A DNA stretch of 63,216 nucleotides, the filler included, from Octopus bimaculoides (Eukaryota): NCBI RefSeq assembly GCF_001194135.2. It is 9 parts of 8 records of this genome, joined end to end, with 100 filler letters (N's around TTAATTAATTAA, not from the genome) between each part and the next. Parts side by side here need not be neighbours in the genome. Positions count along the whole stretch, not along the records: positions 1 to 13,174 come from NC_068982.1; positions 13,275 to 26,908 come from NC_068984.1; positions 27,009 to 40,450 come from NC_068981.1; positions 40,551 to 45,510 come from NC_069006.1; positions 45,611 to 51,021 come from NC_068997.1; positions 51,122 to 53,197 come from NC_068987.1; positions 53,298 to 58,643 come from NC_068982.1; positions 58,744 to 61,946 come from NW_026328975.1; 1 more part is not named here. One strand, given 5' to 3'. The position numbers were made by a program, and so were the translations under genes. Shown piece by piece: positions 575 through 61,666 of the stretch (its first letter is position 1; each line of letters starts with the position of its first letter). The notes beneath the pieces are model-generated. The model did no database searches. It saw only the letters and a list, made by a program, of their open reading frames with translations, and was not told where the DNA came from.

Positions 575-636
575 ACGTGTACTGATGAGTAAAAGATGCA
601 GATTACTGCGTTAATTACGAAATCATGATCTACCGT
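575..636 (+). ncRNA. Type I hammerhead ribozyme motif
   Basis: Stem I acg(t)gta 575-581 / taccgt 631-636. Core CTGATGA 582-588. Stem II GTAA/TTAC extended by hairpin gatgcag-atta-ctgcgtt. GAAA 619-622. Palindromic stem III ATCATGAT. Predicted cleavage after AUC at 630. Confidence 0.8.
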
Positions 637-666
637 TAAGTTAGAAGTATTTAGGGGGTTAGCTTT

Positions 667-703
667 AGCTTTGATGACGGCTGGTAAGCCGAAACATCGA
701 AGC
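667..703 (+). ncRNA. Degenerate minimal hammerhead motif, tandem with 575-636
   Basis: gct-TTGATGA-c-GGCT ggta AGCC-GAAA-ca-TC-gaagc. Stem II and GAAA are intact; C3, the stem I register and the stem III palindrome have decayed. Confidence 0.45.
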
Positions 704-1379
704 CACTACCAATCTTTTCTTTTACAGGTTTATGTATATTTATATGTATGTAAGTGTGCTTGAGACAGAGGTGGGAGAGGGAGAGAGAGAGAAAAATACT
801 GCATATATGGGTGCCTGCCTATTTGGTTACATGTGAGTCTGTACCTGTAGATGGAGAAAGTTCATTGCACAGTTCCTTTTGAATCTAGCAGTTTTACTCT
901 CTTCAAAATGAACGGATGGACTTGTGTTCATCCATTTATTTAGTCCCGCATATGTAACTTCGTGTATCACAGCATGAGTTGGTGCTTTATCTGGTGTGTT
1001 GAATGATGAAGAGATAAATTGTTTATGCTACTTCGTTTCACGATGAACGTTCTTATCGGATGACCGGCCATGATAACATCCCTTGGTAATGTATCATAAA
1101 ACATCACAGCTTCAATATCGTCATCCTAGCTTGCTAAGCTTAAATATTAGCGCTAGCTTTTGCAGATAATTTACTCAACCCGAGAGATACATTACGTAGT
1201 CATGGAGATGACACTCGTACATGAATCTCGAGCATCATCAAATTCTCTAGCGATAGGGAAATATTTAAAATGTGAAGTGAAAAATAACCAGATTTATTGG
1301 TGATTGATTGGCAAGTTTTACTCAACTGTTAGCATCTTTTAACACTTTTAAATTGCAAATAGCATTAAACATTTGCCTG

Positions 1380-1560
1380 TTCTAGCTTCCAAACTGGATG
1401 CTTTCGGTAAGTTGCTGGGAAATGTTTGAGTATGAAGACGTCATTTGTATTTGGCTTTTGTAGATTGCTTACCCTGCTGTGGCTGTATCAAGACTATAGA
1501 AAAGATTCTATGCGGAGAATGTCTTTCATATTGGGGCGACACAATTTCTGGACTTAAAAT
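1380..1560 (-). mobile_element. Highly decayed CR1/L2-like LINE RT remnant
   Basis: Minus strand with frameshifts gives FYKLILSP..SPQYE/DILRIESF, resembling (V)RP.LEY..W.P..DI..IE.VQ. Weak match. Confidence 0.3.
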
Positions 1561-3210
1561 CAGTTTGTAGAAAACCGAAGTCCCTTCAACGATTCACACT
1601 CAAAGTAAGTTAATGACAGTAACAATTTATAGCAGTCAGAACAACAAACAGTTTAGATTACTTCGTATGCATAATATTTTTTTCTGCTGCTAGTATTTGA
1701 CATGGTTTTGACAACATATTAGCGAAAGCAAGTAATGCAGTTAGTGGCCTGTGTAAATATATATGGAACAAGCAACTTCTCAAAAACAAAACCAACGACA
1801 TAAAATTGCAACACTGACGTTTCTCTCCTATAACACTGAATTTTGTTATCACATATCATCCAGAGCACTCACGTAACTTCTTACTCTGCACCATTCTCAA
1901 ACATTCATTGGTGATACTTTACCATTAATAATAGATTTCTAGAAAAAGCTTACATAAATTGCCATTGTATTGGTAGTATACAAATCAGCTGAGTCGGTTA
2001 AATGTTTACAACGATAGCACTGTCACTACTAGGTATTGTGCTGTTTGGCACCACTTGTTTCCTAAAAATTACACGTGGCTACATGATTTTATGGCACAAC
2101 CAAATCTTCCACAAATCATACCTAACTTCTTCAAAAGGTAGGACACATTAGGTAGCATATTGCTACATAAACTTCCTTTAAATAGATAACTTGATGGTTA
2201 CAACCGAAACGTTTTGTATCAAAGATTTGATCTATCAAGGTTAATTTGATCATAGCTATGTTCCATCAAAACTATCTTTGAACCAAACAATAGCAATAGC
2301 TGGTAAGATTTCTCAAGTTGTGTAATTTCAATCCTTATCACAGCTGACAGACTCATCAGCCATCATCTACTGGCTTCAAGAACATGTATAATAAATGAAC
2401 AGCATAAAAGAACATGAACCAATAAGAAAGCCCCTGTGTTATCATTGGATCATCTAGAATGAGCAGCTAAGTCTCCTTCAAATCACACCCTACTATTTTT
2501 AAAACAAGGTGGAGAAAGAATTCCGTGATAGTTCATGTACCCCTTGGACTAGCATCAGCTTACTGTTACATAATGCTAAAGAATTTGATGGATTCCATTC
2601 TTTGTGCAGCCCAGCCAACAGCGTTGACAGAAAAGATATGGTGCGTGAGAAAATATGTTGGGTGACAGAGAACACACTGGAAATGAAAGCGGTAATAGGT
2701 ACGGTGCAGAAAAAATGGGATAAAATATGACGGATAATGAATAAATGGATATCTCACCAGAATAACGAACCCAGATGATATATTCACCAAATAAATATTG
2801 AAGAGGAAGAATGTGTGACTAAAATTGTAGCTATTGGTAGCATAGAAGATAGCTAAGCAAAGAAGATTGTCGTAGAAAATGTGGTGGAAAATGGAGCGAG
2901 CCATGTTGCGTTCCGCCTGAGAGTACTGCACAATGTATTCCGATTTCCGAACAAAATTACACGGAGGAGTAAAATCACTAATGTAATCGATGCGGAAGTT
3001 ATGCATCGTTGAGGCATTCTCTCCCAGCAAATAAGTTAACCCTGCTATAGTATACCTAGCTGAATACTCTACTGGGTCCAAGGTTTGTTAGTTGTTTGAT
3101 GTGTTGACTTTTTAAGCATTTGACATCGGTGGGAAAAAAAAGTGATACTCTTCATGCGAGTCGAAAACGATGTATTCCCCAATTGACAGCTCAATATCAC
3201 ACAGGGCATT

Positions 3211-58743: not shown

Positions 58744-58800
58744 CCTACGCTCTTCAACAGAAAGGAACACGAGAAAATAAACAGAGAGAGAATGAACAAA
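58744..58800 (-). mobile_element. Partial second copy of the hammerhead-like repeat at 61631
   Basis: cctacgctcttcaacagaaaggaacac is identical to 61646-61672; truncated by a gap. Confidence 0.75.
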
Positions 58801-60109
58801 AGCTTTAGGGGCCATCGGTCAATAATGGCGGTTATATATTGGTTAGCCTTTCTTTGTCGACAGTTTCGTGTCAGGACAAAACTCAAACGTTACTGGATCA
58901 CGTGGTTCTCTCTCCGTCACTGTCCACACTAGTCTGCGACTGTCACTAACGCCCGAGCTGTAACGACCACTAAAGCTACCATTCTAGCTATCATTGCTAC
59001 CAATAAACCGCCTCTCTGGCCACCTACGACATCACCGAATCCACCACCACCACCACCACCACCACCACCACCACCACNNNNNNNNNNNNNNNNNNNNNNN
59101 NNNNNNNNNNNNNNNNNNNNNNNNNNNNNNNNNNNNNNNNNNNNNNNNNNNNNNNNNNNNNNNNNNNNNNNNNNNNNNNNNNNNNNNNNNNNNNNNNNNN
59201 NNNNNNNNNNNNNNNNNNNNNNNNNNNNNNNNNNNNNNNNNNNNNNNNNNNNNNNNNNNNNNNNNNNNNNNNNNNNNNNNNNNNNNNNNNNNNNNNNNNN
59301 NNNNNNNNNNNNNNNNNNNNNNNNNNNNNNNNNNNNNNNNNNNNNNNNNNNNNNNNNNNNNNNNNNNNNNNNNNNNNNNNNNNNNNNNNNNNNNNNNNNN
59401 NNNNNNNNNNNNNNNNNNNNNNNNNNNNNNNNNNNNNNNNNNNNNNNNNNNNNNNNNNNNNNNNNNNNNNNNNNNNNNNNNNNNNNNNNNNNNNNNNNNN
59501 NNNNNNNNNNNNNNNNNNNNNNNNNNNNNNNNNNNNNNNNNNNNNNNNNNNNNNNNNNNNNNNNNNNNNNNNNNNNNNNNNNNNNNNNNNNNNNNNNNNN
59601 NNNNNNNNNNNNNNNNNNNNNNNNNNNNNNNNNNNNNNNNNNNNNNNNNNNNNNNNNNNNNNNNNNNNNNNNNNNNNNNNNNNNNNNNNNNNNNNNNNNN
59701 NNNNNNNNNNNNNNNNNNNNNNNNNNNNNNNNNNNNNNNNNNNNNNNNNNNNNNNNNNNNNNNNNNNNNNNNNNNNNNNNNNNNNNNNNNNNNNNNNNNN
59801 NNNNNNNNNNNNNNNNNNNNNNNNNNNNNNNNNNNNNNNNNNNNNNNNNNNNNNNNNNNNNNNNNNNNNNNNNNNNNNNNNNNNNNNNNNNNNNNNNNNN
59901 NNNNNNNNNNNNNNNNNNNNNNNNNNNNNNNNNNNNNNNNNNNNNNNNNNNNNNNNNNNNNNNNNNNNNNNNNNNNNNNNNNNNNNNNNNNNNNNNNNNN
60001 NNNNNNNNNNNNNNNNNNNNNNNACACACACACACACACACATACACACATATAAACACATAGACATAGATACATACAGACATACGACACACATATTCAC
60101 GCCTATGTT

Positions 60110-60310
60110 TATCTTTTACTTATTTCAGTCCTTTGACTGCGGCCATGCTGGGGCACCGCCTTGAAGGGGTTTTAGTCGAACAAATTGACCCCAGAACTTA
60201 TTCTTTGTAAGCCTAGTACTTATTCTATCGGGTTTATTTTGACGAACCGCTAACTTATGGTGACGCAAACGAACCAACACCGTTTATCAAGCGGTGGCGG
60301 GGAATAAACG
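60110..60310 (-). mobile_element. SINE family B tail
   Basis: cttttacttatttcagtcctttgactgcggccatgctggggcaccgcc..gaaccgctaacttatgg..tcaagcggtggcggg. Confidence 0.85.
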
Positions 60311-61630
60311 CACATACATACATACGTACATACATACACATATATATATATATTTATTAGTAAAAAGTATGCATATATGTATTAGCGACGGAAGATGTAT
60401 TAGTACTGAATAGTAATCGTTATATCTTCCTAAATGTGGATGAAGGCCGGTATACTGCGATATTCTCGTTGCTTGAAACCACAGAAAATTGTCCAGAACT
60501 TGTGATAGAACTGTTAGATCCCTTCAGCCTGTATGCGCCTCATCATCAGCAGTTCCACCGGTGGTATAGGACATACTTTTGTCCGCTTCAGATATTTTTG
60601 TGCTTCTAAGCACCAAACATCTATATGAGATGCTCCCTCAAAACCAAAGCTTCAGTATTACGAAGTTCTTACAATACATTCACGTTAAAGAGGAATTATA
60701 AGCGAAAGAAAGAGGAACAGAAGGAGGAATATGAAACATATTTAACACCGTCGACACCACCACCACCACCACCACCACCAACACCACCACCACCAACACC
60801 ACCACCACCACCACCACTACCACTATTACAACCACCACAACGACAAATATCACCATCAAAACTGCNNNNNNNNNNNNNNNNNNNNNNNNNNNNNNNNNNN
60901 NNNNNNNNNNNNNNNNNNNNNNNNNNNNNNNNNNNNNNNNNNNNNNNNNNNNNNNNNNNNNNNNNNNNNNNNNNNNNNNNNNNNNNNNNNNNNNNNNNNN
61001 NNNNNNNNNNNNNNNNNNNNNNNNNNNNNNNNNNNNNNNNNNNNNNNNNNNNNNNNNNNNNNNNNNNNNNNNNNNNNNNNNNNNNNNNNNNNNNNNNNNN
61101 NNNNNNNNNNNNNNNNNNNNNNNNNNNNNNNNNNNNNNNNNNNNNNNNNNNNNNNNNNNNNNNNNNNNNNNNNNNNNNNNNNNNNNNNNNNNNNNNNNNN
61201 NNNNNNNNNNNNNNNNNNNNNNNNNNNNNNNNNNNNNNNNNNNNNNNNNNNNNNNNNNNNNNNNNNNNNNNNNNNNNNNNNNNNNNNNNNNNNNNNNNNN
61301 NNNNNNNNNNNNNNNNNNNNNNNNNNNNNNNNNNNNNNNNNNNNNNNNNNNNNNNNNNNNNNNNNNNNNNNNNNNNNNNNNNNNNNNNNNNNNNNNNNNN
61401 NNNNNNNNNNNNNNNNNNNNNNNNNNNNNNNNNNNNNNNNNNNNNNNNNNNNNNNNNNNNNNNNNNNNNNNNNNNNNNNNNNNNNNNNNNNNNNNNNNNN
61501 NNNNTATATATATATATATATATATATATATATATGGATATGGGAGAATTTACGAAAAAACAACAGACGAAGTCAGGTGGTGTAAACAACAAATGGATGT
61601 ATTAGTTTAACGCTCGGGAATAGAGAAAGT

Positions 61631-61666
61631 CTCTAACGTTTCGAGCCTACGCTCTTCAACAGAAAG
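61631..61666 (-). ncRNA. Minimal hammerhead variant with A6U core
   Basis: Minus strand cttt-CTGTTGA-a-GAGC gtag GCTC-GAAA-cg-TT-agag. Stem I cttt/agag, stem II 4 bp, ACGT palindrome. Confidence 0.65.

What the first reader, a model, noticed from the sequence alone, without database searches (positions are those of the whole stretch)
575..61666. About one hammerhead motif per 10 kb, from at least five unrelated sequence families
Seen: six HHR folds plus a partial one in about 50 kb of called bases, with different stem sequences and core variants (CUGAUGA, CUGACGA, CUGAGGA, UUGAGAA, CUGUUGA). All are type I, and stem III is palindromic or one transition from it. Three separate PLE remnants lie in the same window. 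Inference: a genome-wide PLE/HHR system with autonomous, solo-repeat and SINE-like members. Intronic sense copies could affect host pre-mRNA if active.
Basis: partly seen in the sequence, partly recalled or inferred. Interest (0 to 1): 0.72.

Follow-up and report, generated by a model that had tools for sequence, protein, structure and literature searches.

The report
Penelope hammerheads, one with altered core
The motifs are real matches to a known small self-cutting RNA that sits at the tail of Penelope-type jumping genes, here in what is likely an octopus; the less ordinary point is that one very abundant family keeps a changed letter at a core position thought essential, and whether it still cuts is untested.

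Summary
The motifs are real: 5 strict hits in the window against a mean of 0.055 in 200 shuffles. I count seven whole and two partial type I hammerheads from seven families.

"One per 10 kb" does not hold genome-wide. In 140 random 10-kb stretches, intact motifs occur once per ~70 kb and recognisable ones at least once per ~25 kb.

Four families (B, C, D, E) are 3' ends of Penelope-like elements (PLEs), with coding sequence upstream in longer copies. Family A is a ~500-nt non-coding, retrozyme-like unit. This system is published (Cervera and de la Peña 2014), and this scan noted it before on other DNA of this genome.

Two details were not found in my paper searches:
- Family E has U at core position A6 in 8,668 exact pattern matches against 73 with A, while N7 and H17 vary freely.
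- Family B carries a tRNA-like pol III head about 30 nt after its ORF, where many short copies begin.

Cleavage, strand bias in introns and host effects were not tested.

The parts
430..666 (+). Family A copy: inverted piece of its own tail (430-468) followed by the direct copy; hammerhead 570-640, core CUGAUGA at 582, stem III AUCAUGAU. Non-coding ~500-nt permuted unit (retrozyme-like).
   Evidence: direct redundancy at 480-502 nt in 7 of 20 loci (two are one place); longest stop-free frame 69 codons in L063; inverted piece upstream in 7 of 20; compensatory changes in stem II and stem III.
660..712 (+). Decayed minimal hammerhead (A2), core UUGAUGA at 671, old separate family
   Evidence: two weak relatives in the random sample (L172, L192, E=6e-4); fold z=-4.5
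23860..24062 (.). Family G: hammerhead with U3-A8 core UUGACAA at 24017+ and an inverted partial copy (core 23892-23886, minus strand)
   Evidence: relatives in L142 (two copies) and L182 keep core, stem I and stem II
31398..31475 (+). Short relic of a PLE-type endonuclease C-terminus
   Evidence: tblastn E=5e-7 against a relic in L285 that has no Pfam match itself
37270..37960 (+). Broken PLE-like ORF, N-terminal region before the RT core
   Evidence: motif recognition recalled; no relevant Pfam match
47134..47205 (+). tRNA-like head of family B with pol III A-box and B-box-like motifs; the window copy starts 2 nt upstream of it
   Evidence: Rfam tRNA model positions 8-63 at 14.3 bits, below the gathering score of 29; ARAGORN finds no tRNA; box consensus recalled; head begins ~30 nt after the ORF stop
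47290..47385 (+). Family B minimal hammerhead (core CUGACGA at 47300, extra A after A9, stem III ACGU) and tail; 3' end of a likely Penelope/Poseidon-type PLE
   Evidence: ORF end within 90 nt upstream of the head in 19 of 49 head-bearing loci of 65; RT piece, gap, ORF end, head and hammerhead in order in L012; inverted piece upstream in 14 of 30
51122..51230 (+). Family C minimal hammerhead with compensated U3-A8 core (UUGAGAA); 5' arm of stem I cut by the stretch start; 3' end of a PLE
   Evidence: 7-bp stem I in full copies. Pfam RVT_1 E=3.6e-7 and GIY-YIG E=4e-5 upstream in L110.
56600..57540 (+). Broken PLE-like RT relic with a YVDD motif, interrupted by a microsatellite and a gap
   Evidence: Pfam RVT_1 E=0.019; no link to the family D copy found
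57739..58127 (+). Family D copy: fold-back 5' junction (57746-57797), hammerhead 57866-57970 (core CUGAGGA at 57880, long stem II, stem III ACGUACGU); 3' end of a likely Hydra-clade PLE
   Evidence: GIY-YIG Pfam E=2e-6 about 1 kb upstream. CxCX5C linker in L299, as defined in PMC8557442 section 11.
58744..58830 (-). Partial family E hammerhead (core CUGUUGA at 58760), cut by the stretch end
61555..61730 (-). Family E copy, hammerhead 61624-61672 with non-canonical core CUGUUGA (U at position 6); 3' end of a likely Neptune-type PLE
   Evidence: Endonuclease-like coding piece on the same strand 1.0-1.6 kb upstream in L275 (across an assembly gap) and L281; Pfam GIY-YIG E=0.004, below cut-off.

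Best explanation
Four of the seven hammerhead families lie downstream of Penelope-type coding sequence in their longer copies, and all are likely the ribozyme-bearing tail ends left by several Penelope-like retrotransposon families and one non-coding passenger. Shown: B, C, D and E have PLE coding sequence upstream on the same strand; most copies are short, keep the motif across its cleavage site, and often carry an inverted piece of themselves; A is a ~500-nt permuted non-coding unit. Inferred from published work on another PLE: the element's protein starts reverse transcription about 100 nt downstream of the ribozyme on an uncut RNA and usually stops early, at a family-specific place that is likely a transcript start or a structured stop. 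This would litter the genome with solo hammerheads. Inferred: the palindromic stem III would let two motifs cut as a dimer in tandem transcripts, so lone copies would be mostly inert. Family E's U6 core is likely a slow natural variant kept under some structural constraint, and its cleavage is likely not needed for making short copies.
For: Motifs exceed chance in the window, in the random sample and genome-wide: 10,780 matches to a canonical minimal-hammerhead pattern against 97 for the reversed control. Each of the five families searched has 914-2,260 first-look candidates. Upstream coding sequence. Inverted pieces upstream in 14 of 30 B, 7 of 20 A, 4 of 20 C, 3 of 20 D and 1 of 30 E loci. 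Preferred 5' ends relative to the core: B 7 of 15 gap-free junctions at -161 to -189; D 9 of 16 at -98 to -116; E 28 of 29 at -66 to -92. Family A covariation: pairs 22-51 (AU 10, GC 5) and 56-62 (UA 10, CG 4); 3-4 of 500 shuffles reach three of the five measures. Literature: PMC4209133 (solo motifs, extra base after A9, U3-A8 variant, low dimer activity) and PMC11167929 (internal initiation, uncut RNA is the main substrate).
Against: No full-length element was recovered. B's endonuclease has no Pfam match in the stop-free pieces tested and aligns to E's only at E=0.001 in a small search. E's link to its ORF rests on 2 loci, one across a gap. A2 and G were not traced to any ORF. Two of the five covariation measures for A do not exceed the shuffles, and related copies inflate the others. 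B and E fold no better than shuffles as monomers (z=-1.7 and -0.1). No cleavage or strand-specific RNA data were obtained.
Confidence: 0.85

Rival explanations
1. Family E's motif is a dead ribozyme. A6 changed to U once in a master copy and the family kept spreading because cleavage is dispensable; the other core letters have simply not changed yet.
For: Changes at A6 give low activity (natural A6C below 0.1 per min, PMC3088659 section 8). In a type III hammerhead all single and double CUGA mutants except the C-G swap were low (PMC9901934 passages). A young subfamily also has U4 changed to A (41 of 52 loci from the two E searches; 2 of the first 100 genome matches). Many flanking positions are as invariant as the core. 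Catalytic mutants did not affect insertion in vitro (PMC11167929).
Against: N7 takes all four bases (65 U, 17 G, 14 C, 4 A in the first 100 matches). H17 takes U, C or A but not G at 4% or more in four runs labelled as four organisms, while position 6 shows no variant at that level. This is the variation pattern expected of live hammerheads (rule recalled).
Confidence: 0.45
2. The short copies of family B are a true SINE: a pol III transcript that starts at the tRNA-like head, runs through the hammerhead and is copied in trans by the PLE whose 3' untranslated region contains that head.
For: The head begins ~30 nt after the ORF stop. 5' junctions cluster at the head start: 6 of 13 in the head-selected subset least biased by the query flank, 7 of 15 in the hammerhead-selected set, and 5 of 6 inversion joints at 47132-47137 in laid contigs. 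There is no T4 run between head and tail. Where checked the head is followed by the hammerhead in most loci.
Against: D and E have equally sharp 5' hot spots with no tRNA head seen. A short inverted repeat overlaps the head start and could favour strand switching. The tRNA match is weak. The 21 of 34 figure for all head-selected loci is biased by the query's flank. No pol III data.
Confidence: 0.45
3. Lone sense copies inside introns cut host pre-mRNA, as monomers or as trans dimers through the palindromic stem III, and so regulate or burden host genes.
For: High copy number. A and D have 8-bp self-complementary stems III (-7.2 and -9.8 kcal/mol predicted as duplexes).
Against: A single minimal motif showed no cleavage and dimers were weak (PMC4209133). 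No RNA reads ended at the site in Anolis (PMC11167929). B and E have only 4-bp palindromes (-1.7 kcal/mol). No host gene was identified in the window (small exons not excluded).
Confidence: 0.1
4. The motifs are chance matches in AT-rich repeats.
For: Rfam gave no hammerhead at gathering score. Some loose descriptor hits are chance.
Against: Shuffle and reversed-pattern controls; covariation; fixed position behind PLE ORFs.
Confidence: 0.01

Closest known systems
Minimal type I hammerheads in pLTRs of metazoan PLEs (Cervera and de la Peña 2014, PMC4209133; parts 1-2 of 4 and supplement part 1 read)
   Same: Short stem I, unpaired base after A9, G10.1-C11.1 pair, palindromic stem III, U3-A8 variant, many families per genome, mostly solo copies from truncated PLEs
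   Different: Octopus and CUGUUGA do not occur in the searched supplements (one of the files was not searched). The estimate here (at least ~19,000 exact pattern matches) exceeds the 2,000-9,000 motifs reported there, but methods differ. A family-wide U6 core was not seen in the parts read.
Hydra-clade PLEs (Craig et al. 2021, PMC8557442, section 11 read)
   Same: Family D: C-terminal GIY-YIG, CxCX5C linker, CxxC before the conserved E, canonical hammerhead, copies ending in (TA)n
   Different: D has a ~1-kb untranslated region and a long stem II; the RT motifs (RWK, DKT) were not recovered
Metazoan non-LTR retrozymes (PMC7229834, passages; preprint 10.64898/2026.07.22.740005, part 1 of 5)
   Same: Family A: non-coding unit, type I hammerhead, more-than-unit-length copies, PLE-like inversions
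   Different: Unit ~500 nt (published 150-450 bp); no copy with two tandem hammerheads seen in 20 loci; circular RNA not shown
Schistosoma Sm-alpha SINE-like repeats (as reviewed in PMC6765202, passages)
   Same: Family B: pol III-type promoter followed by a hammerhead
   Different: In B the tRNA-like head sits inside the 3' untranslated region of a coding PLE, ~30 nt after its stop codon, and copies are dispersed with inversions rather than tandem
Natural hammerhead core variants (Perreault et al. 2011, PMC3088659, section 8 read)
   Same: U3-A8 covariation (families C and G); a position-6 variant (A6C) with low activity
   Different: A6U and U4A+A6U are not named in that section; here U6 is the state of a whole high-copy family

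Membership tests
Minimal type I hammerhead ribozyme | Core CUGANGA...GAAA, U16.1-H17 (or the compensated U3-A8 core) | tested here: met
   A, B, D canonical; C and G U3-A8
Minimal type I hammerhead ribozyme | Core consensus in family E (A at position 6, U at position 4) | tested here: not met
   8,668 matches with U6 against 73 with A6; A4 in a subfamily
Minimal type I hammerhead ribozyme | Stems I and II pair; stem III is short and palindromic | tested here: met
Minimal type I hammerhead ribozyme | Self-cleavage at H17 | not testable with these tools
   Only contig runs were available
Endonuclease-bearing Penelope-like element | GIY-YIG endonuclease at the ORF end upstream of the hammerhead (C, D) | tested here: met
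   Pfam PF01541 above cut-off
Endonuclease-bearing Penelope-like element | GIY-YIG endonuclease upstream of the hammerhead (B, E) | tested here: inconclusive
   E: E=0.004, below cut-off, 2 loci. B: no Pfam match, aligns to E's domain at E=0.001.
Endonuclease-bearing Penelope-like element | Reverse transcriptase in the same element | tested here: inconclusive
   C: RVT_1 E=3.6e-7. B: YVDD piece across a gap in L012. D and E not reached.
Endonuclease-bearing Penelope-like element | 5' truncation with inverted copy of the terminal repeat | tested here: met
   rare in the E set (1 of 30)
Hydra clade (family D) | CxCX5C linker and CxxC in the endonuclease | tested here: met
   L299, L290
Hydra clade (family D) | RWK and DKT motifs of the RT; phylogenetic placement | not tested
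   RT not recovered
Non-LTR retrozyme (family A) | Non-coding unit with a type I hammerhead | tested here: met
   Longest stop-free frame 69 codons in L063
Non-LTR retrozyme (family A) | Tandem repeats with a hammerhead in each unit | tested here: inconclusive
   Terminal redundancy at 480-502 nt, but no direct dimer in 20 loci
Non-LTR retrozyme (family A) | Circular RNA | not testable with these tools
   No raw RNA reads
tRNA-derived SINE (short family B copies) | tRNA-related head with A and B boxes at the 5' end | tested here: inconclusive
   Sub-threshold Rfam tRNA match; junctions cluster at the head start
tRNA-derived SINE (short family B copies) | Transcription by RNA polymerase III | not testable with these tools
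   None

The most novel reading that the evidence does not exclude
A Neptune-type PLE lineage with about ten thousand copies, present in several related species, runs on a working hammerhead whose 'invariant' A6 is U (and whose U4 is A in a young subfamily). The element's own protein would rescue a core that mutagenesis predicts to be nearly dead. Alongside it, a second PLE has captured a tRNA-type pol III promoter in its 3' untranslated region and so sheds its own SINE, whose short RNAs could serve as trans partners for the dimeric ribozyme.
Probability: 0.25. Interest if true: 0.68.

Novelty: new variant of a known kind. Interest (0 to 1): 0.38.

Why it matters
As a system it is ordinary: it adds a likely octopus to the animals full of PLE hammerheads. 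Its value is as a natural experiment on an open question, namely what the PLE ribozyme is for. Family E spread widely with a core predicted to be slow. If it cuts, the hammerhead consensus widens or protein assistance is stronger than thought. If it does not, cleavage is dispensable for amplification in vivo. Descriptor searches requiring CUGANGA would miss family E, which was the largest family in the random sample (14 hits against 12 for B). Family B offers a direct route from a coding PLE to a tRNA-headed SINE.

Tried and rejected
- Rfam at gathering score found only a 5S rRNA; the E-value list shown was microsatellite noise.
- My first descriptors missed motifs with the extra base after A9 or a bulged stem I; corrected.
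- Loose candidates at 38415+, 39972+ and 45347- were rejected: broken core or stem I; 38415 has no relative among the held loci; 39972 lies in a LINE ORF.
- The idea that A6 copies of family E are an ancestral subfamily is not supported: they scatter among U6 subfamilies on a 68-row tree with the 7-nt core removed, and their N7 spectrum (42 U, 13 G, 11 C, 7 A of 73) mirrors that of U6 copies. The oldest branch is unresolved, so an old A6 subfamily is not excluded.
- A link between the 56600-57540 RT relic and the D hammerhead was not found.
- Expression: no listed holder is on record as RNA. Only contigs could be laid, so starts, ends and cleavage could not be seen.
- One fold (L101) used wrong coordinates and is disregarded; it was redone.
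- A PDB search with C's RT gave nothing significant.
- Lünse et al. 2016 on dimeric PLE hammerheads was not held; I know it only through PMC6765202 passages, and it may list position-6 variants.
- Intron strand bias was not testable: no annotation.
- A whole-domain Pfam test of B's broken endonuclease remains open.

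
Full report
Window. The window is a pack of 9 stretches with 56.9 kb of called bases, rich in microsatellites. G000 has 2.34 Gb in 145,327 contigs. The repeat content looks like an octopus; this is recalled, and earlier scan notes say the same.

Observation. A descriptor allowing a bulged stem I and one extra base after A9 finds cores at 582+, 671+, 47300+, 57880+ and 61662-. Reading adds 51123+, whose stem I is cut by the stretch start, and a partial motif at 58760-. A further family lies at 24017+ with a U3-A8 core and an inverted partial copy; relatives in L142 and L182 keep its stems. 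The strict descriptor gives 5 hits against a mean of 0.055 in 200 shuffles. The six motifs compared share only 7-9-nt words.

Density. I drew 140 random 10-kb stretches from 28 large contigs (1,204,983 called bases). The strict descriptor gave 17 hits (10 canonical, 2 U3-A8, 5 family E) plus 8 with one other core change; 20 shuffles gave a mean of 1.2 for the strict classes. Adding homologues of all seeds gives 46, or 49 with family G. That is one intact motif per ~70 kb and at least one recognisable motif per ~25 kb. Whole-genome pattern counts agree: 10,780 canonical minimal motifs against 97 in the reversed control (most of the first 100 listed are family B), and 8,668 family E motifs against 0. 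The window is richer than the sample (expected 2.2 by homology, 6 found by the same search, P about 0.02). Four of seven positions lie within 214 nt of an N run, so the pack is likely biased towards repeats at assembly breaks.

Family C. Full copies have a 7-bp stem I. RT and GIY-YIG Pfam matches lie upstream in L110 and L112. The U3-A8 core is a published variant (PMC4209133; PMC3088659).

Family D. A GIY-YIG domain lies about 1 kb upstream, with the CxCX5C linker that PMC8557442 section 11 gives for the Hydra clade.

Family B. The end of an endonuclease-like ORF (clade assignment recalled) is followed after ~30 nt by a tRNA-like head, an (AAT)n run, the hammerhead and a ~100-nt tail. L012 shows an inverted tail, an RT piece, a gap, the ORF end, part of the head and the hammerhead in order. 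Of 65 loci, 49 hold the head and 19 of those have the ORF end directly upstream.

Family E. A long pyrimidine- and CA-rich region precedes the motif; an endonuclease-like piece with a zinc-finger-like linker lies on the same strand 1.0-1.6 kb upstream in L275 and L281. The Neptune label is recalled from that linker.

Family A. Copies are redundant at 480-502 nt, non-coding and often inverted at the 5' end. Stem II and the palindromic stem III show compensatory changes (related copies inflate this). It works like a non-LTR retrozyme; circles and tandem dimers are not shown.

Mechanism. Copies span the predicted cleavage site and end about 100-250 nt downstream. Each of B, D and E has a preferred 5' end. 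PMC11167929 (parts 1-2 of 4 read) reports for an Anolis PLE that reverse transcription starts inside the RNA downstream of the hammerhead, that uncut RNA is the main substrate, that catalytic mutants do not affect insertion and that cleavage needs the protein. I infer the same here: short cDNAs made on uncut RNA explain the solo motifs. The palindromic stem III points to dimeric cleavage in tandem transcripts (PMC4209133); lone copies would be mostly inert.

Family E core. U6 is found in 8,668 matches and A6 in 73. The A6 copies have mixed flanks, scatter on the tree and mirror the N7 spectrum of U6 copies, so they are likely sporadic mutations. A sister group with canonical cores forms a separate clade (6 rows, support 100/99; long branches meet there), which suggests A6 is the older state. 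In contigs of four runs labelled as four organisms, N7 and H17 vary but position 6 shows no variant at 4% or more. Published mutagenesis predicts low activity for changes at A6 (PMC3088659, PMC9901934). Slow-but-live and dead are about equally likely.

Family B head. Junctions cluster at the head start. D and E have hot spots without a head, and a short inverted repeat overlaps the site, so a pol III SINE reading stands at about even odds. An earlier scan note (e1-8841792) described a tRNA-headed repeat likely copied by PLE enzymes; I could not confirm that it is the same family (one search returned nothing).

What is in print. Searches for hammerhead ribozyme + Penelope + octopus and hammerhead ribozyme + cephalopod listed PMC8557442, which mentions octopus only for Naiad elements, and a twister paper. 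A 2026 octopus repeat annotation has no mention of ribozymes in its main text (PMC13282606, passages). A search for A6U/U4A listed only the twister paper, and a search for a tRNA or pol III head in a pLTR (20 of 27 listed, titles and abstract starts only) showed nothing specific. Lünse et al. 2016, one supplement file of PMC4209133, the supplements of PMC8557442 and bioRxiv supplements were not seen and may bear on novelty.

Verdict. Real, high-copy and largely known. The density claim is overstated; host effects are untested. Interest rests on family E's core and family B's head.

Noticed in passing
window 5200-5318 (-): Full-length 5S rRNA match (98.9 bits) directly beside a common SINE-like repeat (5023-5185); gene or retrocopy not determined.
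   Followed up: no
window 45612-46429 (+), 28306-29082 (-), 6918-7601 (+), 49150-49629 (+): Mariner-type transposase relics; Pfam matches for the first two, the others by resemblance.
   Followed up: no
window 10642-10920 (-), 39095-40134 (+): LINE relics with zf-RVT matches.
   Followed up: no
window 47766-48014 (-): Peptide resembling a Helitron Rep-helicase N-terminal part (recalled; no Pfam match), next to a 69-nt tandem repeat at 48252-48450.
   Followed up: no
L350:200-420: Apparent chimera: upstream flank of the canonical-core sister family joined at the hammerhead to a family E downstream part; suggests template switching within the ribozyme.
   Followed up: partly
L353: Two direct copies of a sister-family hammerhead 156 nt apart, a natural candidate for dimer cleavage.
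   Followed up: no
random loci L132, L157, L164, L165, L173, L175, L186, L211, L244, L248, L254: At least ten further hammerhead families, many with long stem II and 8-nt palindromic stem III.
   Followed up: no
window 54297-54386: Perfect 13-nt tandem repeat, 6.9 copies.
   Followed up: no
window 430-712: The family A copy ends where the decayed A2 hammerhead begins; two unrelated hammerheads lie 89 nt apart on one strand, possibly a nested insertion.
   Followed up: partly
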